In this document: positions 8,165 to 40,509 of the stretch, piece by piece | Numbering within the stretch: position 1 is the first letter of the stretch | Layout: every line of letters starts with the position of its first letter | Source of the DNA: Acidobacteriota bacterium | GTDB lineage: Bacteria > Acidobacteriota > Thermoanaerobaculia > Gp7-AA8 | NCBI GenBank assembly: GCA_003223635.1 | Contig: QHVS01000110.1 | Coordinates: forward strand, 1-43,385 | Reading direction: 5' to 3' | Length of the DNA stretch: 43,385 bases | Translations under genes and position numbers: made by a program | Notes under the pieces: model-generated | Databases searched by the model: none | Seen by the model: only the letters and a program-made list of their open reading frames with translations | Told to the model about the DNA's origin: nothing

Positions 8165-8628
8165 ATGGAACTCAGTGTCTTGATGGGGCATGCCCCCGCT
8201 CGCGTCGACGACAAGGGACGCTTGAAGGTCCCGGCGGATTTCCGCAAGTTCATTGAAGAACGATACGGCTCCGACTGCTTCATGACTGCTTCATTATCTC
8301 CATGGACGGAGAACGCGCGCTGATCTATCCGATGCCGGTCTGGAACGATTTCCAGGGAGGGCTGGCGAAAGTCCCATCAACGTCGATGGCCAAATCCAAG
8401 CTGCTGGAGCGGGCGAATTACTACGGACAGGCGGCGACGATCGACGGGCAAGGACGGCTGCTGATCCCCACTGTGCTCCGCGAAATCGCCGGGATCGCAG
8501 AAGACGTGGTGGTCCTGGGCAACACCGATCACCTGATCGTGTGGAACGAGGAGCGGATCCAGAAGCGACTGGCGAAGAGTCCGTTGAGCGCGGAGGACAT
8601 GAAGGAGTTGGAGCTGCACGGAGTGTAG
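8165..8628 (+). pseudogene. mraZ: mraZ (dcw transcriptional regulator) interrupted by a +11 frameshift
   Basis: The N-terminal half (ATG 8165 or 8183) reads ...GHAPARVDDKGRLKVPADFRKFIEERYGSDCF and stops at TGA 8321. The C-terminal half is ORF 8302..8628 (MDGERALIYPMPVWNDF...GRLLIPTVLRE...) in another frame. Removing one copy of the 11-bp duplication restores a single 145-150 aa MraZ. Confidence 0.8.
8273..8294 (+). repeat. perfect 11-bp tandem duplication GACTGCTTCAT x2
   Basis: Read directly: 8273-8283 is identical to 8284-8294. Confidence 0.95.
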
Positions 8629-8702
8629 TTGCTGAGTTGCTTGGTTGCTAGGTTGCTGGACGGGTGGGACTGAGCAACCCAACAACCAAGTAACCCAGCG
8701 AC
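8628..8702 (+). repeat. intercistronic octamer-built hairpin (mraZ|rsmH)
   Basis: Left arm is GTTGCTGA GTTGCTTG GTTGCTAG GTTGCTGG (8628-8659). Right arm is GAGCAACC CAACAACC AAGTAACC CAGCGACC (8672-8703). Hand pairing of 8628-8657 with 8673-8702 gives 25 WC pairs, 2 GU pairs and 3 mismatches. Confidence 0.85.
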
Positions 8703-9625: not shown

Positions 9626-9643
9626 GGCGGAGCCAGGCAGCAA

Positions 9644-9716
9644 GGGTGAAGGTTGGGGAAGGGTGGGTGTGGCGCGGTGAGCGGGGGCTCGGGAGGGGTG
9701 GAGCGTGGGGGGTGGG
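9644..9716 (+). other. G-run-dense tract (G-quadruplex-prone) in the rsmH-ftsL spacer
   Basis: Nine runs of at least three G in 73 nt on the sense strand, with only six C. Includes GGGGAAGGGTGGG and GGGGGCTCGGGAGGGGTGGAGCGTGGGGGGTGGG. Confidence 0.8.
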
Positions 9717-9792
9717 TGGACGTGGACGCTGCTCGTTGCCGTGCATGTAGGCAAATCTTCACCCTTGTTCCCGGGCTCCGCGCGGCCATGGA

Positions 9793-13600: not shown

Positions 13601-13608
13601 AATTGAGC

Positions 13609-13638
13609 TTGATATTGATGACAACATCAGCTTATGAT
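13609..13638 (+). promoter_or_regulatory. candidate sigma70-like promoter TTGATA-N18-TATGAT in the murE-murF spacer
   Basis: Hexamers read at 13609-13614 and 13633-13638 inside an AT-rich island (about 13558-13650). This is a motif match only. Confidence 0.3.
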
Positions 13639-13783
13639 TTGGCGCACTGGAAACGGTGCTCTCTCCCGGCTCCGTCGGTCAGTTTCAGCGTGGGTGTGTG
13701 GACGGTGATCGCGGGGCAGTCCCGGGGGAAGGGATGCGATCGCCGTTGTGGAAGCGCGGCGGGGCCGGGAGAGAACATCGCAG

Positions 13784-13811
13784 GTCGCGGATCGCGGATC
13801 GCGGATCGCAG
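13784..13811 (+). repeat. tandem heptamer array GTCGCGG ATCGCGG ATCGCGG ATCGCAG
   Basis: Four consecutive 7-nt units read directly. They end 9 nt before the murF ATG (13821). Confidence 0.9.
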
Positions 13812-13820
13812 AGGGCAGCC

Positions 13821-15200: not shown

Positions 15201-16288
15201 TGCTGTATTACCTCCTCTATCCGCTCCGCAACGTGATCTCCGGATTCAACGTCTTCCGGTACATCACCTTCCGGACGGCGTGGGCGGCGCTCACCGCGCT
15301 GGTCATCTGCTTCATCCTCGGGCCGTGGCTGATCGAGCGGATGCGGCAGATCAAGCTCGGGCAGTTCATCCGCGAAGAGGGGCCGAAATCACATCAGCAG
15401 AAGGCGGGGACGCCGACGATGGGCGGCATCCTGATCAACGTGGCCATCCTCATCCCCACGCTGTTGTGGGCGGACATCCTCAACCCGTACATCTGGATCG
15501 TTCTCTTCGTCACGTTCGCCTATGGAACGATTGGTTTCATCGATGACTATCAGAAGCTGGCCAAGAAGAGAAACCTCGGCCTGACGGCGAAACAGAAGTT
15601 CACCATACAGTTCGGGGTGGCTCTGGCCGCCGGCCTGGCCATCGCCTATCTGCCCAGCATCCACAACAACTACTCCACCGTGCTGACGTTTCCTTTCTTC
15701 AAGACGCTCCACGTGAATCTCGGATTTCTGTATATCCCGTTCATCATGATCGTGATTGTCGGCGCATCGAACGCCGTCAATCTGACGGATGGTCTCGATG
15801 GGTTGGCCATCGGCACCACGCTGATCGCGGCGGTCACCTACACGATCCTGACCTACGCGGCAGGGAACTTCCGCGTGGCCGACTATCTGCGCATTGCCTG
15901 GGTGCCGCAGGCCGGAGAGCTGGCCGTGTTCTGCGGCGCCATGGTCGGGGCCTCGCTCGGATTTCTCTGGTTCAACGCGCATCCGGCAGAGATTTTCATG
16001 GGCGACGTCGGATCGCTGGCCCTGGGCGGAGCGATCGGCTGCCTGGCGGTGATGATCAAGCAGGAGATTCTGCTCATCTTCGTCGGCGGACTGTTCGTCG
16101 TCGAGGCGGCTTCGGTGATCATCCAGGTGGCTTCATTCAAGCTGACCGGCCGCCGCGTCTTCAAGATGTCGCCGCTGCATCACCACTTCGAGCTCTCCGG
16201 CTGGCGGGAGACGAAGGTGGTGGTTCGGTTCTGGATCATCGCAATCATCTTTGCGTTGTTGAGTCTTTCGACTTTGAAACTGAGATGA
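15200..16288 (+). CDS. mraY: phospho-N-acetylmuramoyl-pentapeptide transferase
   Basis: 362 aa polytopic protein. [13 protein letters not shown] and HHHFE motifs. TGATG overlap with murF. Confidence 0.95.
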
Positions 16289-17595
16289 GGCTACTCGTGG
16301 TGGGAGCGGGCAAATCGGGCGTGGCTGCAGCAAACTTCCTCGCGGAGCGGGGCGAGGACGTTGCCATCAACGATCGCAATCCGTATCCCGATCTTCCCTA
16401 TCCGCTGCACGAACGGGTGACCAGGCTGTTCGGTCAGCAGGACGAGTCTCTTCTCACCGGAGTGGAGTCGGTCATCGTCAGCCCGGGCGTTCCGCTCGAC
16501 GTACCGCTGCTCCGGCACGCTGCGTCGATGCGCATTCCGGTCATCGGCGAGATCGAGCTGGCGTTCCGTCATCTCAAAGGAACGGTCATCGCCATCACCG
16601 GCTCCAACGGCAAGTCGACGACGACGGCCCTGATCGGCGAGATCCTCAAAGTCGCCGGCCGTCAGCCGATCGTGGCCGGCAACATCGGCGAACCGCTGAT
16701 AGCAGCGATCGATCAGGAGAAGCCGCGGACCTACGTGCTGGAGCTTTCGTCGTTTCAACTGGAGACAGTTGACGCGTTCCGGGCGAATGTCGCGCTTCTT
16801 TTGAACATTACGCCCGACCACATGGACCGCTATCCGAACTTCGACGCCTACGCGGCAACAAAGTATCGGGTCCTCCGCAATCAGCAGGCCAGTGACACGG
16901 CGATCGTGAACGCCAGCGAACGTCGTGCTGTCGATCGGGGGTCCCATGCTCGCCTGTGGCGCTTCTCCGCATCGGAGAAGGTGAATGAAGGTGCCTGGCT
17001 GGATGGCGACCAGATGGTCTTGAGCATCGGCGGCGAAGAGCGGCGCATACCGCGTTCTGCGTTGAAGCTGGAAGGGCTGGCGAACGTGGAAAACGCTCTG
17101 GCCGCATGGCTTGCCGCGCGCGCGGTGGGCGTCGATGACGTGGCGGTGCAGATCGCGTTCGGATCGTTCCGAGGGCTGCCGCACCGGATGGTGATGGTGC
17201 GGGAGAAGGGCGGCGTTCGTTACGTCAACGACTCGAAAGGGACGAACGTCGACGCCACGCTCAAATCGCTGGAAAGTTTTCCCCCGTCCAGCGTGCTGCT
17301 GATCCTGGGAGGCAAAGACAAAGCGGGTGAGTTCGAGCGGATGCGCGATCTCATTGCGGAGAAGACACGCTACGTGATCACCATCGGCGCCGCCGCGGAT
17401 CGCATCTCCAGCGCGCTGGAGGGCTCGGCGACCATCGTTCCGATGGGCGATATGGAGCGCGCGGTGCGCTGGGCGTCGGAACATGCCAAAACCGGCGACA
17501 CGGTGCTCCTCTCGCCGGCCTGCGCCAGCTTCGATCAGTACAAGAACTTCGAGCATCGGGGACAACATTTTGAGGGGTTGGTGAGGAGGTTGTGA
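16285..17595 (+). CDS. murD: UDP-MurNAc-L-Ala:D-Glu ligase
   Basis: 436 aa. [15 protein letters not shown] Rossmann N-terminus and [12 protein letters not shown]-loop. ATGA overlap with mraY. Confidence 0.93.
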
Positions 17596-17671
17596 GTTGC
17601 TCGGTTGCTAGGTAGCTGAGTTGCTGGGTGTTTCGCCTGGCAACCGAGCAACCTAGCAACTGAGGAACCCA
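17593..17671 (+). repeat. intercistronic octamer-built hairpin (murD|ftsW), paralogue of 8628-8702
   Basis: Left arm is GAGTTGCT CGGTTGCT AGGTAGCT GAGTTGCT. Right arm is GGCAACCG AGCAACCT AGCAACTG AGGAACCC. Lower stem 17593-17617/17647-17671 has 21 WC pairs, 1 GU pair and 3 mismatches. Upper stem 17620-17628/17636-17644 has 7 WC and 2 GU pairs, with a 7-nt loop. Confidence 0.85.
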
Positions 17672-17676
17672 GGAAC

Positions 17677-18774
17677 ATGAGCCGCAAACTCTCATATGAC
17701 ACGTGGTTATTCGCCGCTGCGCTGCTGATCGTGGTCATCGGCCTGGTGATGATCTACAGCGCCTCGGCCATCATCACCACGCAGAAAGTCGGCTTGGACA
17801 ATCCGTACTACTTCATCACCCGTCAGTGCATCTGGCTGCTCGGCGGAAGCGCGCTGATGCTGATCCTGATGCATGTCGATCTGAGCCGGCTGCGCGATCG
17901 TCGCGTGATCTACGCGGCGATGGGCGTCCTGGGGATTGCCCTGGTGGTGGTGCTGTTCCAAACACCGGTGAACGGAACACACCGCTGGATCGTGTTTCCC
18001 AGCTTCCGGCTGCAGCCGAGCGAATTCGCGAAGCCGGTGATCGTGCTGTTCCTCGCTTCGTTCCTCGCCCGGCGCGAGAGCCGGATCAACGAGGTCACCT
18101 CGACGCTGCTGCCGCTCGGTTTCACGATCGCCGTGTTCGCGGGACTCATCCTCATCGAGCCCGATTTCGGCACCGCGGCGACGCTGGTGCTGGTCACAGC
18201 GGGGATGGTGTTCGCCGCCGGCATCGCCTGGAACCGCGTGGCCATCTTCTCGCTGATGGTGATTCCCGCGGCGGCCATGGTGGCCTTCAGCGCGGCGTAT
18301 CGACGCGATCGACTCTTCACGTTTCTCAATCCGGAGGCCGATCCACTGGGCAAGGGTTTTCAGGCCATGCAGTCGCTGATTGCGCTCGGAACCGGCGGCC
18401 TGCACGGATTGGGCATCGGCAACGGGCGGCAGAAACTGTTCTTCCTGCCCGAGCCGCACACGGATTTCATCTTCTCCATCATCGGCGAGGAACTGGGGTT
18501 CATCGGCGCCTTCGGGCTGATCGCGCTCTTCGCGTTTCTGGTGTGGCGCGGCTACCGCGTGGCGCGTTTCAGCCAGGAGCGCTTCGACTACTACGCGGCG
18601 CTCGGATTCACTCTGATGATCGCCGTGCAGGCCTTGATCAACATCAGCGTGGCATTGTGCCTTCTTCCGACGAAGGGGCTACCGCTGCCGCTGGTCAGCT
18701 ACGGCGGCTCCTCGCTGACGACCAGCCTGATCGCGGTCGGCATGCTGCTGAATCTCTCGCAACAATCGGGCTGA
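17677..18774 (+). CDS. ftsW: SEDS peptidoglycan glycosyltransferase FtsW
   Basis: 365 aa polytopic protein. SEDS-family motifs (RLQPSEFAKP, EPHTDFIFSIIGEELGF, PLPLVSYGGSS). Position between murD and murG. Confidence 0.9.
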   Translation: MSRKLSYDTWLFAAALLIVVIGLVMIYSASAIITTQKVGLDNPYYFITRQCIWLLGGSALMLILMHVDLSRLRDRRVIYAAMGVLGIALVVVLFQTPVNGTHRWIVFPSFRLQPSEFAKPVIVLFLASFLARRESRINEVTSTLLPLGFTIAVFAGLILIEPDFGTAATLVLVTAGMVFAAGIAWNRVAIFSLMVIPAAAMVAFSAAYRRDRLFTFLNPEADPLGKGFQAMQSLIALGTGGLHGLGIGNGRQKLFFLPEPHTDFIFSIIGEELGFIGAFGLIALFAFLVWRGYRVARFSQERFDYYAALGFTLMIAVQALINISVALCLLPTKGLPLPLVSYGGSSLTTSLIAVGMLLNLSQQSG

Positions 18775-24678: not shown

Positions 24679-24706
24679 CTTAGCTATTAGCTGTTAGCTC
24701 TTGGAT
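24679..24706 (+). repeat. tandem heptamer array CTTAGCT ATTAGCT GTTAGCT (CTTGGAT)
   Basis: Three units with an identical TTAGCT core plus a degenerate fourth. They begin 12 nt after the ftsZ stop, in the convergent spacer. A weak AGCTCTT/AAGAGCT 7-bp stem (24696-24702/24719-24725) overlaps the array. Confidence 0.7.
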
Positions 24707-33997: not shown

Positions 33998-36585
<2,588 letters not shown>

Positions 36586-40438: not shown

Positions 40439-40509
40439 GAATGTTAAATGTTAAATGTTGAATGTTGAATCTGACTTTTTTCGAACTTCGAAATTCGAAC
40501 TTCACGAAC
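40439..40509. repeat. two adjacent AT-rich tandem heptamer arrays
   Basis: The first array is GAATGTT AAATGTT AAATGTT GAATGTT GAATCTG (40439-40473). The second, after the spacer ACTTTTTT, is CGAACTT CGAAATT CGAACTT CACGAAC (40482-40509). Both lie in the spacer between the dehydratase stop and the rarA start. Confidence 0.85.

What the first reader, a model, noticed from the sequence alone, without database searches (positions are those of the whole stretch)
17593..17671. Second copy of the octamer hairpin element fills the murD|ftsW gap and buries SD-like sequences
The architecture matches 8628-8702. It starts on the murD stop (TGA 17593-17595) with NNGTTGCT octamers, then a loop, then AGCAACNN octamers that end 5 nt before the ftsW ATG (17677). 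By hand pairing the lower stem has 21 WC pairs, 1 GU pair and 3 mismatches over 25 positions. After a 2x2 internal loop there is a 9-bp upper stem with a 7-nt loop. The only SD-like sequences for ftsW (GAGGAA 17662-17667, AGGAAC 17671-17676) lie in or at the foot of the stem. Two paralogous elements inside one essential operon argue for a functional or mobile element family rather than chance.
Basis: seen in the sequence. Interest (0 to 1): 0.75.

Follow-up and report, generated by a model that had tools for sequence, protein, structure and literature searches.

The report
Fast-evolving tandem-repeat hairpin between genes
The 79-base hairpin between murD and ftsW is real and belongs to an apparently undescribed class of hairpins built from inverted arrays of 7- or 8-base repeats, which in this soil Acidobacteriota lineage repeatedly fill tight gene junctions, change repeat sequence between close relatives, and are present or absent among near-identical strains.

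Summary
TGA 17593, four NNGTTGCT units, a loop and four AGCAACNN units end 5 nt before the ftsW ATG (RNA fold -55 kcal/mol, z = -6.3), and 8628-8702 is a second copy.

The organism is an uncultured Thermoanaerobaculia bacterium (Acidobacteriota). GTTGCTNN arrays are a dispersed family there, about 27 per Mb in loci not chosen for repeats.

The family is one case of a wider pattern. In relatives the ancestral murD|ftsW state is an ATGA stop/start overlap. Thirteen lineages carry hairpins there built from unrelated 7- or 8-nt units. Strains 99% identical in ftsW either share the window's hairpin or have only a 7-nt spacer.

Across about 50 hairpins I found no wobble bias on the sense strand, no target-site duplications and no conserved loops. 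The SD-like motifs of this copy are absent in a strain 97% identical in ftsW DNA.

Best reading: hypervariable repeat DNA, made by slippage and exchange between arms. It is tolerated at junctions because the folded RNA keeps stop codon, upstream SD and AUG together, and a terminating ribosome melts the stem base. A selected regulatory role or a REPIN-like mobile element remains possible.

It is a new variant of known repeat kinds and of moderate-to-high interest.

The parts
17593..17671 (+). Tandem-repeat hairpin (element 2). Left arm 17593-17630 has four NNGTTGCT octamers, one mutated to GTAGCT. Loop 17631-17633. Right arm 17634-17671 has GCAAC/AGCAAC/AGGAAC octamers.
   Evidence: (I2)
17593..17595 (+). 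murD stop codon TGA, which forms the first pairs of the stem foot.
17585..17589 (+). SD-like GGAGG inside the last murD codons (GTG AGG AGG). It corresponds to the GGTGAGG motif that lies 5 nt upstream of the ftsW ATG in relatives with the ATGA overlap.
   Evidence: its function is inferred
17662..17676 (+). SD-like GAGGAA and AGGAAC. These are two AGCAAC units with a C-to-G change. GAGGAA is paired in the lower stem. Neither motif is present in L202.
17677..17679 (+). ftsW start codon, 5 nt 3' of the stem foot.
8628..8702 (+). Tandem-repeat hairpin (element 1) of the same GTTGCTNN family. It fills mraZ stop to rsmH start.
35088..35145 (-). Tandem-repeat hairpin with a different unit: heptamer GCGAGCA x3 against GCTCGCT x3, a perfect 26-bp stem. 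It lies between the stop of a FecR-domain gene (35149) and mreB.
   Evidence: (I1)
13777..13812 (+). Direct-only heptamer array (GGATCGC x4-5) in the variable slot just upstream of the murF start. Relatives carry tandem-repeat hairpins with other units in this slot.

Best explanation
The element is one copy of a lineage-wide class of 'tandem-repeat hairpins'. Each consists of two inverted arrays of the same 7- or 8-nt unit, here NNGTTGCT and AGCAACNN.

Shown:
- It is non-coding, hypervariable repeat DNA.
- Units are gained, lost and replaced quickly.
- Both arms carry the same unit consensus without position-by-position mirroring.
- The element is present or absent among near-identical strains.
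- Such hairpins pile up at what were tight or overlapping stop/start junctions of co-directional genes.

Inferred origin: replication slippage of 7-8-nt units, plus templated exchange between arms and between arrays, working from short local seeds or ectopic copies.

Inferred reason it persists inside an essential operon: in the mRNA the insert folds out of the way. The stem foot keeps the murD stop codon, the old SD (GGAGG in murD's last codons) and the ftsW AUG within about 8 nt of each other. This resembles the split SD-AUG sites of T4 genes 25 and 38. A ribosome terminating on the TGA at the foot must also melt the lower stem, which frees the ftsW start region. ftsW translation therefore stays coupled to murD, as in the ancestral ATGA overlap, perhaps somewhat attenuated. 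The net effect would be near-neutral to mildly modulatory.
For: Family and taxon:
- FtsW relatives are named Thermoanaerobaculia or Acidobacteriota.
- The pattern scan gave 120 stretches, about 50 of them from Acidobacteriota MAGs and many per genome, mostly as + and - paired arrays.
- Density is 27 per Mb in relatives' loci not chosen for repeats, against 0 in distant loci.

The class:
- In Thermoanaerobaculia ftsW loci not chosen for repeats, 24 of 41 period-7 arrays and 8 of 21 period-8 arrays have an inverted partner. For periods 5, 6, 9 and 10 the figure is 0 of 40. In other phyla it is 4 of 62 and 7 of 92.
- The class also occurs in Terriglobales.

Same slot, different units:
- murD|ftsW is an ATGA overlap in 6 lineages.
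- It is filled by tandem-repeat hairpins with unrelated units in 13 lineages: GTTGCTNN, GTTCGCA, GTCCTGC, GAGCCGCC, AAATGCA, GCTCTTA, ACCGGTG, GCGATCA, GCAGAGG and others.
- Filled and empty states are interspersed on the FtsW tree.
- mraZ|rsmH behaves the same way.

Speed of change:
- Window against L202: coding DNA 96-97% identical, spacer 67%, with a 2-unit indel.
- L247-L250 (99.2-99.5%) keep the hairpin. L251 (99.3%) and L245/L246 (97%) have a 7-nt spacer, GCGAACG, which resembles one unit of L203's array.
- L204 has a single-unit mini-hairpin where L201 has arrays. L205 has a 436-nt triplicated module.

DNA-level rather than RNA-level signature:
- Sense against antisense MFE: 21 against 30 (p = 0.26).
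- Arms: 1176 WC, 31 GU and 44 AC on the sense strand.

Context:
- 51 of 62 classifiable hairpins lie between co-directional genes.
- 10 of those 51 leave 10 nt or less of residual spacer, although such junctions offer only 0.7% of intergenic sites.

Translation geometry:
- The foot pairs 17593 with 17671.
- Holding nt up to 17607 open raises GAGGAA accessibility from 0.17 to 0.72.
- No intrinsic terminator is predicted.
- Precedents: ribosome-assisted unfolding (PMC4538824) and the split SD-AUG hairpin (PMC3014915).
Against: - No expression data exist for this uncultured organism. The coupling and fold-out step is purely inferred.
- The roughly 25-fold excess at tight junctions and the high occupancy of murD|ftsW could instead reflect targeting or positive selection.
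- The same unit recurs at several loci of one genome (GCAGAGG at 3-4 junctions in L013; GCGAGCA in the window and in L245; GTTGCTNN genome-wide). Purely local slippage does not explain that, and it hints at copying between loci.
- This particular copy is 13 kcal/mol more stable as sense RNA than as antisense RNA.
- The test for mirror symmetry of unit variants was inconclusive.
- My gene calls come from a home-made codon-usage caller.
Confidence: 0.55

Rival explanations
1. Selected cis-regulatory mRNA hairpin. The stem is kept by selection to set the ftsW:murD expression ratio, either by sequestering the ftsW ribosome-binding site or by acting as a processing or stabilising stem-loop. Changes in repeat number would then serve as an evolvable tuning knob.
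For: - murD|ftsW is occupied in 13 or more lineages, and every long spacer there folds strongly, from -38 to -250 kcal/mol.
- Hairpins start on the stop codon and end next to the start codon.
- This copy has 5 GU pairs and is more stable as sense RNA, -55 against -42 kcal/mol.
- GAGGAA is buried.
- All three lineages with a filled mraZ|rsmH junction carry GGAG at the foot, whereas empty ones have GGTG or GGCG.
Against: - There is no sense-strand wobble bias over 47-51 hairpins.
- The SD-like motifs are not conserved in L202.
- Stability and size vary enormously between close relatives: 7 nt, 18 nt, 70-91 nt and 436 nt.
- The hairpin is absent in strains 97-99% identical and in 6 lineages with the ATGA overlap.
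- Spacer divergence is at or above the neutral level.
Confidence: 0.2
2. Non-autonomous mobile DNA of the REP/REPIN or IS200/IS605-dependent type. A hairpin-recognising single-strand transposase would move these elements without making target duplications, with a preference for sites just after stop codons.
For: - Dispersed families share one unit at many loci and across genomes.
- Several junctions of one operon carry the same unit in L013.
- There is a strong preference for gene junctions.
- Nested arrangements of two unit types occur.
- Absence of target-site duplications is what Y1-transposase mobility predicts.
Against: - Copies of a family share only the unit, not loops, length or termini.
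- Single-unit and direct-only intermediates exist at orthologous sites.
- Unit number changes stepwise, as in simple-sequence repeats.
- No transposase was identified. None lies in the window according to the Pfam and NCBIfam scans of 20 of its ORFs.
- No GTAG or CGTC tag is present.
Confidence: 0.15
3. Dedicated templated-addition mechanism. Short units would be added repeatedly to both 3' ends of a DNA break, by a telomerase-like or primase-like activity. Joining the two ends would then give inverted arrays separated by an unrelated 'loop'.
For: - Both arms carry the same unit consensus without clear position-by-position mirroring.
- Loops are unrelated between copies.
- The period is narrowly restricted to 7-8 nt.
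- New units sit inside older ones in nested elements.
Against: - There is no candidate enzyme or template.
- Variable NN positions and many different unit families would each need their own template.
- Direct-only arrays and single-unit seeds fit ordinary slippage.
- The idea is entirely speculative.
Confidence: 0.05
4. Chance or an assembly artefact: slippage noise with no family.
For: All sequences come from metagenome assemblies. L202 and L251 are short contigs.
Against: - The same hairpin is recovered almost unchanged in four independent contigs from different samples (L247-L250).
- The pattern is enriched 10 against 0.13, and fold z-scores are -5 to -6.
- Hundreds of analogous hairpins occur in JGI, ENA, NCBI and Logan assemblies.
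Confidence: 0.02

Closest known systems
Long simple-sequence repeats with 5-11-nt units: Mrazek 2007 as summarised in PMC4679880, cyanobacterial STRR heptamers, and the TAACTGA heptamer repeats of Beggiatoaceae, Cyanobacteria and Bacteroidetes (MacGregor 2015, PMC4679880)
   Same: Head-to-tail arrays of 7-8-nt units. They are almost exclusively intergenic, often lie a few nt upstream of start codons, vary in copy number and have a patchy phylogenetic distribution. Heptamers are the commonest class.
   Different: Those are direct arrays; MacGregor found one inverted set among 170. Here about half of all 7/8-mer arrays are paired with an inverted array of the same unit and form 50-150-nt hairpins. 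They fill stop-to-start junctions inside operons. Many unrelated units share one architecture.
REP/BIME elements and REPINs (PMC3116915, PMC2817692, PMC3733652)
   Same: Abundant extragenic palindromic DNA, often just after stop codons inside operons. REPINs are two inverted repeats that form a long hairpin. They make no target-site duplication, and their proposed roles include mRNA stabilisation.
   Different: REPs are 20-40-nt units of fixed sequence with a GTAG or CGTC tag, and they depend on a RAYT. Here the arms are tandem arrays of 7-8-mers, copies share only the unit, no tag is present, no RAYT is known, and the unit sequence turns over at orthologous sites.
MITEs
   Same: Short, non-coding, intergenic, with inverted-repeat ends that fold into hairpins, and present in multiple copies.
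   Different: MITEs have defined terminal inverted repeats, a conserved interior and target-site duplications. None of these was found. True MITE-like elements (GTCATTCCGAGCG...CGCTCGGGATGAC) do occur in relatives and look quite different.
Split SD-AUG initiation sites bridged by a hairpin (T4 genes 38 and 25; PMC3014915), and translational coupling by ribosome-assisted unfolding of intergenic structure (Tian & Salis 2015, PMC4538824)
   Same: A stable stem-loop lies between an SD and its AUG, or between an upstream stop and a downstream start. The effective spacing across the stem foot is about 8 nt here, against 5 and 11 nt in T4. The upstream ribosome reaches the 5' arm.
   Different: The T4 hairpins are short (spacing 22-27 nt), conserved and experimentally validated. 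Here the resemblance is only one of mechanism, inferred from geometry. The hairpin is 79 nt, hypervariable and dispensable.
Integron attC sites
   Same: Imperfect hairpins of variable sequence and length lying directly after ORFs. Structure, not sequence, is what is shared.
   Different: The core sites RYYYAAC and GTTRRRY are not matched (GTTGCTN has C and T where R is required). There is no cassette array or integrase, and the dcw operon is a conserved housekeeping cluster.

Membership tests
Long simple-sequence repeats / STRR-type short tandem repeats | At least 3 head-to-tail copies of a 5-11-nt unit in non-coding DNA | tested here: met
   TRF finds period 8 with 4-5 copies in each arm. The element is intergenic.
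Long simple-sequence repeats / STRR-type short tandem repeats | Copy-number hypervariability between close relatives | tested here: met
   The left arm has 4 units in the window and 2 in L202, at 97% DNA identity. Strains 97-99% identical differ in presence or absence.
Long simple-sequence repeats / STRR-type short tandem repeats | Arrays are direct (single orientation) | tested here: not met
   The array is paired with an inverted array of the same unit. This holds for 24 of 41 period-7 arrays and 8 of 21 period-8 arrays in loci not chosen for repeats.
REP / REPIN | Fixed 20-40-nt imperfect palindrome with a conserved GTAG or CGTC end tag | tested here: not met
   Copies share only the octamer. 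Loops and lengths differ, and there is no tag at the ends.
REP / REPIN | Associated RAYT (Y1 transposase) gene in the genome | not testable with these tools
   Only 8-21-kb loci are available and no whole-genome protein scan is possible. None was found among the 20 window ORFs scanned.
MITE | Target-site duplication flanking the element | tested here: not met
   Flank-to-flank direct-repeat score is 4.93, against 4.86 for mismatched flanks (p = 0.27, n = 68). Only the functionally required ATGA is duplicated at overlap junctions.
MITE | Conserved interior and length among copies | tested here: not met
   The two window copies and the copies in OY970284.1 have unrelated loops and different unit numbers.
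Intrinsic (Rho-independent) terminator | GC-rich stem-loop followed by a U-tract | tested here: not met
   No terminator-like site in 17300-17900. The stem is followed by GGAACAUGAGCC.
Curated structured RNA family (Rfam 15) | Covariance-model match at the gathering score | tested here: not met
   No hit in the window. Only chance-level hits with E of 0.1 or more in 17450-17800.
Conserved cis-regulatory RNA (generic) | Structure kept through RNA-specific (G-U tolerant, sense-strand) substitutions across homologues | tested here: not met
   Sense against antisense MFE is 21 against 30. GU 31 against AC 44 on the sense strand. Unit-mirror covariation is weak or inconclusive.
Translational-coupling / split-RBS hairpin | Upstream stop codon within ribosome reach of the 5' arm, and downstream start region on the opposite side of the same stem foot | tested here: met
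   TGA pairs at the foot (17593 with 17671) and the AUG lies 5 nt 3' of the foot. Opening nt up to 17607 raises GAGGAA accessibility from 0.17 to 0.72.
Translational-coupling / split-RBS hairpin | Downstream translation depends on upstream translation and on stem integrity | not testable with these tools
   This needs reporter or toeprint experiments.
Integron attC | R''/R' core sites RYYYAAC...GTTRRRY and an integrase context | tested here: not met
   By inspection, GTTGCTN violates RRR and NAGCAAC violates YYY. The context is the dcw operon.

The most novel reading that the evidence does not exclude
Acidobacteriota harbour a previously unrecognised, self-propagating kind of hairpin DNA: inverted arrays of 7-8-nt units. 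These would be actively created or moved to stop/start junctions by a structure- or template-directed mechanism, such as a REPIN-like single-strand transposition or templated end-addition. Their rapid changes in unit number would act as evolvable rheostats for translational coupling in essential operons such as dcw.
Probability: 0.2. Interest if true: 0.8.

Novelty: new variant of a known kind. Interest (0 to 1): 0.62.

Why it matters
The element shows how a large, extremely stable hairpin can be dropped repeatedly and independently into the overlapping stop/start codons of essential cell-division genes without breaking the operon. It gives a natural series of alleles at one junction: the ATGA overlap, 7-nt and 18-nt spacers, hairpins of 70-166 nt and 250 nt, and a 436-nt module. 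That series could be used to test models of translational coupling and split ribosome-binding sites.

It also points to a mutational or mobile process specific to this lineage. That process makes inverted arrays of 7-8-nt repeats, is a major source of intergenic structural variation between near-identical strains, and is apparently undescribed in a dominant but poorly studied soil phylum.

In practice, such hairpins will confuse gene-start prediction, ncRNA and terminator finders, and assembly in Acidobacteriota MAGs.

Tried and rejected
- **Rfam.** No hit at gathering score on the window or by E-value on the element.
- **Intrinsic terminator or promoter.** None predicted.
- **RNA-level selection by strand asymmetry.** I compared sense and antisense MFE and counted GU against AC. 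There is no sense-strand bias, so I rejected the reading that it is a selected structured RNA family.
- **Register and mirror tests of unit variants.**
  - The shift-by-one-unit control looked positive but was biased, because the register had been chosen as the best one.
  - With unit-shuffle nulls the observed value was 0.868. It falls between the same-register null (0.845) and the best-of-five-registers null (0.888), so the result is inconclusive.
- **Target-site duplications.** No signal. The 13-nt exact duplication I found belongs to a hairpin in L206 that is not built from tandem repeats.
- **Viral contigs.** The scan gave 38 direct arrays and no paired hairpins, which is uninformative.
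- **Gene calling.** My first caller, based on position-specific base composition, picked antisense ORFs. I replaced it with a codon-usage model seeded on the dcw genes.
- **Effective SD-AUG spacing.** Using outermost MFE pairs across lineages was too noisy to use quantitatively.
- **Literature.** I found no description of inverted 7/8-mer arrays in Acidobacteriota.
- **Not done.** I did not build a covariance model. The family shares only a periodic unit, so pattern scans answered the copy-number question.
Full report
**1. Observation**

The finding is accurate to the base.
- murD (16285-17595) ends in TGA 17593-17595 and ftsW starts at ATG 17677. Both genes are confirmed by NCBIfam equivalog models.
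- Between them lie GTTGCT at 17596, 17604 and 17620, with GTAGCT at 17612. A short loop follows, then AGCAAC at 17647 and 17655 and AGGAAC at 17663 and 17671.
RNAfold then finds an upper stem of 11 pairs including 3 GU.
- The RNA folds at -55.3 kcal/mol (z = -6.3). As DNA it folds at -27 kcal/mol (z = -5.1).
- The copy at 8628-8702 fills the gap from the mraZ stop to the rsmH start with the same architecture (-46.5 kcal/mol, z = -5.5).
- GTTGCTNNGTTGCT with up to one mismatch occurs 10 times in the window, all within these two loci, against 0.13 expected.
- There is no Rfam match and no terminator or promoter consensus.

**2. Organism and family**

- FtsW relatives are named Thermoanaerobaculia or Acidobacteriota. 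The window is a whole 43,385-bp MAG contig.
About 50 came from Acidobacteriota MAGs, 38 of them Thermoanaerobaculia, and many from the same genome: 10 of the 120 stretches lie on the complete chromosome OY970284.1.
- In those MAGs the arrays are mostly followed within 100 nt by the inverted array. They often begin on a stop codon or end next to a start codon, and they are sometimes nested with other octamers such as GCGGTCTC or GTGGATTA.
- Hits in other phyla are direct arrays.
- In loci fetched through FtsW, and so not chosen for repeats, clusters with at least 2 perfect GTTGCTNN units number 7 in 255 kb for Thermoanaerobaculia and 0 in 628 kb for distant relatives.
- The two window copies are therefore members of a real, dispersed family.

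**3. The same slot holds different repeats in relatives**

In relatives with FtsW 67-99% identical, murD|ftsW is found in several states.
- **ATGA overlap:** L009, L011, L014, L015, L016, L206.
- **Short spacer:** L005 (3 nt), L245/L246/L251 (7 nt), L204 (18 nt).
- **Plain GC hairpin:** L008.
- **Hairpin of inverted tandem repeats, with a different unit in each lineage:**

| Lineage | Unit |
|---|---|
| window, L202 | GTTGCTNN |
| L203 (FtsW 90% identical) | GTTCGCA / GCGAACC |
| L201 (89%) | GTCCTGC |
| L001 | GCGGTCTC + GGTTGCCG |
| L002 | GAGCCGCC |
| L003 | GAGTTGCG + GGCACGCG |
| L004 | AAATGCA |
| L006 | GCTCTTA |
| L007 | ACCGGTG |
| L010 | GCGATCA |
| L013 | GCAGAGG |
| L205 | a 145-nt composite module repeated three times (436 nt, -250 kcal/mol) |

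Filled and empty states are interspersed on an FtsW tree.

The mraZ|rsmH slot behaves the same way:
- window: GTTGCTNN;
- L204: GTCTCGCG / GTTGCGGG;
- L006: AGCTGAC;
- L245: a direct-only GTTGTCG array;
- L010, L011, L016: empty.

Other dcw junctions that are ancestrally overlapping are filled sporadically. So is a variable slot just upstream of murF, which holds a direct GGATCGC array in the window.

**4. A class defined by architecture**

I combined TRF with a local search for an inverted match.
- In Thermoanaerobaculia loci not chosen for repeats, 24 of 41 period-7 arrays and 8 of 21 period-8 arrays have an inverted partner.
- For periods 5, 6, 9 and 10 the figure is 0 of 40.
- In other phyla it is 4 of 62 (period 7) and 7 of 92 (period 8).
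- The same architecture, with yet other units such as CACGGAGG and TCAGTTC, occurs in loci that turned out to be Terriglobales. There a G-to-A change in the unit is found in both arms, but not in mirrored positions.
- The window holds a third such hairpin, with heptamer unit GCGAGCA, between a FecR-domain gene and mreB (-67 kcal/mol).

**5. Tempo**

- Four independent contigs 99.2-99.5% identical in ftsW DNA carry the window's hairpin with 1-3 point changes.
- A fifth (L251, 99.3%, same FtsW protein as two of the four) and two contigs at 97% have only the spacer GCGAACG. That spacer resembles one unit of L203's array.
- L202 has coding DNA 96-97% identical, but its spacer is 67% identical. It has a two-unit deletion in the left arm, and it carries AGCAAC where the window has the SD-like AGGAAC and GAGGAA.
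- L204 has a single-unit mini-hairpin where L201 has arrays.
- Between the window and L245 (about 96% identical), the intergenic structural differences inside the operon are three tandem-repeat sites and two MITE-like insertions.

**6. Tests of mechanism**

- **RNA-level selection.** It predicts G-U pairs on the transcribed strand. Over 51 hairpins between co-directional genes, sense RNA is more stable in 21 and antisense in 30 (p = 0.26). In ungapped arms there are 1176 WC, 31 GU and 44 AC oppositions on the sense strand.
- **Mirror symmetry of unit variants.** It is weak: 0.868 observed, against unit-shuffle nulls of 0.845 and 0.888. The arms pair mainly because both are arrays of one unit.
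- **Target-site duplication.** There is no signal. At overlap junctions only the functionally required ATGA(G) is duplicated.
- **Conservation between copies.** Loops are unrelated between copies.
- **Genomic context.** Of 62 classifiable hairpins, 51 are between co-directional genes. Ten of those 51 leave 10 nt or less of residual spacer, although such junctions provide only 0.7% of intergenic positions. These figures rest on my own codon-usage gene caller.

**7. How it most likely works**

Shown: this is hypervariable repeat DNA whose sequence is not conserved. It is dispensable and concentrated at tight junctions.

Inferred origin: slippage of 7-8-nt units, the size class already known to dominate bacterial long simple-sequence repeats (PMC4679880), plus templated exchange between arms and arrays.

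Inferred reason for tolerance:
- The stem foot pairs the murD TGA with 17669-17671.
- This leaves 3 nt between the GGAGG in murD's last codons (17585-17589) and the foot, and 5 nt between the foot and the AUG.
- GGAGG is the counterpart of the GGTGAGG that lies 5 nt upstream of the ATG in the overlap state.
- The effective spacing is therefore about 8 nt, comparable with the split SD-AUG sites of T4 genes 38 and 25 (PMC3014915).
- A ribosome stopped on TGA covers the first 12 nt or so of the left arm. Holding those nucleotides open raises the accessibility of GAGGAA from 0.17 to 0.72. This is the ribosome-assisted unfolding route to coupling (PMC4538824).
- The ancestral coupling is thus plausibly retained.

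None of this has been tested experimentally.

**8. Rivals**

- **A selected regulatory hairpin.** Favoured by the high occupancy of this junction, by the fact that all long spacers there fold, and by the sense-strand stability of this copy. Disfavoured by points 5 and 6.
- **A REPIN-like element moved by a single-strand transposase.** This would explain families shared across loci, the junction preference and the missing target duplications. It would not explain the unrelated loops, the stepwise unit changes or the single-unit intermediates. No enzyme is known.
- **A templated end-addition mechanism.** Speculative.
- **Chance or assembly artefact.** Excluded.

**9. Novelty**

Searches of the held literature found direct heptamer arrays, REP/REPIN elements and MITEs. 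They found no description of inverted 7/8-mer arrays at gene junctions in Acidobacteriota. I rate the element a new variant of known kinds, namely simple-sequence repeats and extragenic palindromes.

The surprising features are the architecture, the convergence on one junction of an essential operon, and the rapid turnover.

Noticed in passing
window 13601-13820 (murE|murF spacer); alignment A1: murF probably starts near ATG 13821, not at GTG 13656. The spacer holds a sigma70-like promoter (TTGATA, 18 nt, TATGAT) right after the murE stop. It also holds a conserved structured element of about 140 nt (13640-13779), present in all 11 Thermoanaerobaculia lineages checked. RNAalifold predicts 35 pairs, 8 of them with compensatory double changes. 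There is no Rfam hit even at E <= 1. It is a candidate new leader RNA for murF-mraY-murD-ftsW.
   Followed up: partly
window 13777-13812: A direct heptamer array (GGATCGC x4-5) lies in a variable slot between that leader element and the murF start. The same slot holds tandem-repeat hairpins or arrays with other units in L245 (GCGAGCA), L204 (GGTTGTC), L205, L013 and L016.
   Followed up: partly
window 35088-35145 (- strand genes): A perfect 26-bp hairpin made of heptamer GCGAGCA x3 against GCTCGCT x3 (-67 kcal/mol). It fills the gap between the stop of a FecR-domain gene and mreB. The same unit forms the murF-leader hairpin in relative L245.
   Followed up: partly
window 8273-8294: An 11-nt tandem duplication (GACTGCTTCAT x2) frameshifts mraZ in the window. 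Relative L249 (98.8% identical) lacks it and encodes an intact 150-aa MraZ. It is either a real pseudogenisation or an assembly error.
   Followed up: yes
window 40440-40503: Two adjacent direct heptamer arrays (AATGTTA/G x4 and TTCGAAC x3) lie between a PLP-dependent enzyme gene and an MgsA/RarA-like ATPase gene. They do not form a hairpin (z = -1.7). The AATGTTG unit forms a hairpin in L170.
   Followed up: partly
window 24680-24700: A direct TTAGCTN x3 array lies just after ftsZ. Its unit is related to the AGCTCTT hairpin units of L006 and L016. No significant fold.
   Followed up: partly
window 9626-9792 (rsmH|ftsL spacer): The spacer keeps a conserved length of 167-193 nt in most lineages (287 nt in L016, which has a repeat hairpin inserted there). 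It has a long-range stem (GGCGGAGCC..CAAGGGTGAAGGTTG / CAAATCTTCACCCTTG..GGCTCCGC) around a G-rich interior. The same stem is visible in L204.
   Followed up: partly
L201 6880-7050, 10415-10520, 13055-13150; L206 4910-5020; L245 375-465, 14463-14560, 17325-17420: A MITE-like element with ends GTCATTC(C/T)GAGCG...CGCTC(G/A)GGATGAC is inserted at several dcw junctions of relatives. It is absent from the window (chance-level matches only).
   Followed up: partly
L206 2330-2480 (mraY|murD): A 130-nt hairpin not built from tandem repeats is inserted at the ATGA junction. It is flanked by an exact 13-nt direct repeat, AACTTCGATGAAC.
   Followed up: no
window 17578-17583 with 17692-17697; L016, L009, L013, L004 and others: The SD-like GGTGAG in the last murD codons is complementary to CTCACC in ftsW codons 5-7 in many lineages, including those with the ATGA overlap. 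In the window the pair is TGAGGG with CTCTCA. This may be an older structure enclosing the junction.
   Followed up: no
L251 vs L249/L250/L245: L251 encodes the same FtsW protein as the hairpin-bearing L249 and L250. Its murD end and 7-nt spacer, however, resemble the 97%-identical L245 type. This suggests recombination at the junction or a chimeric contig.
   Followed up: no
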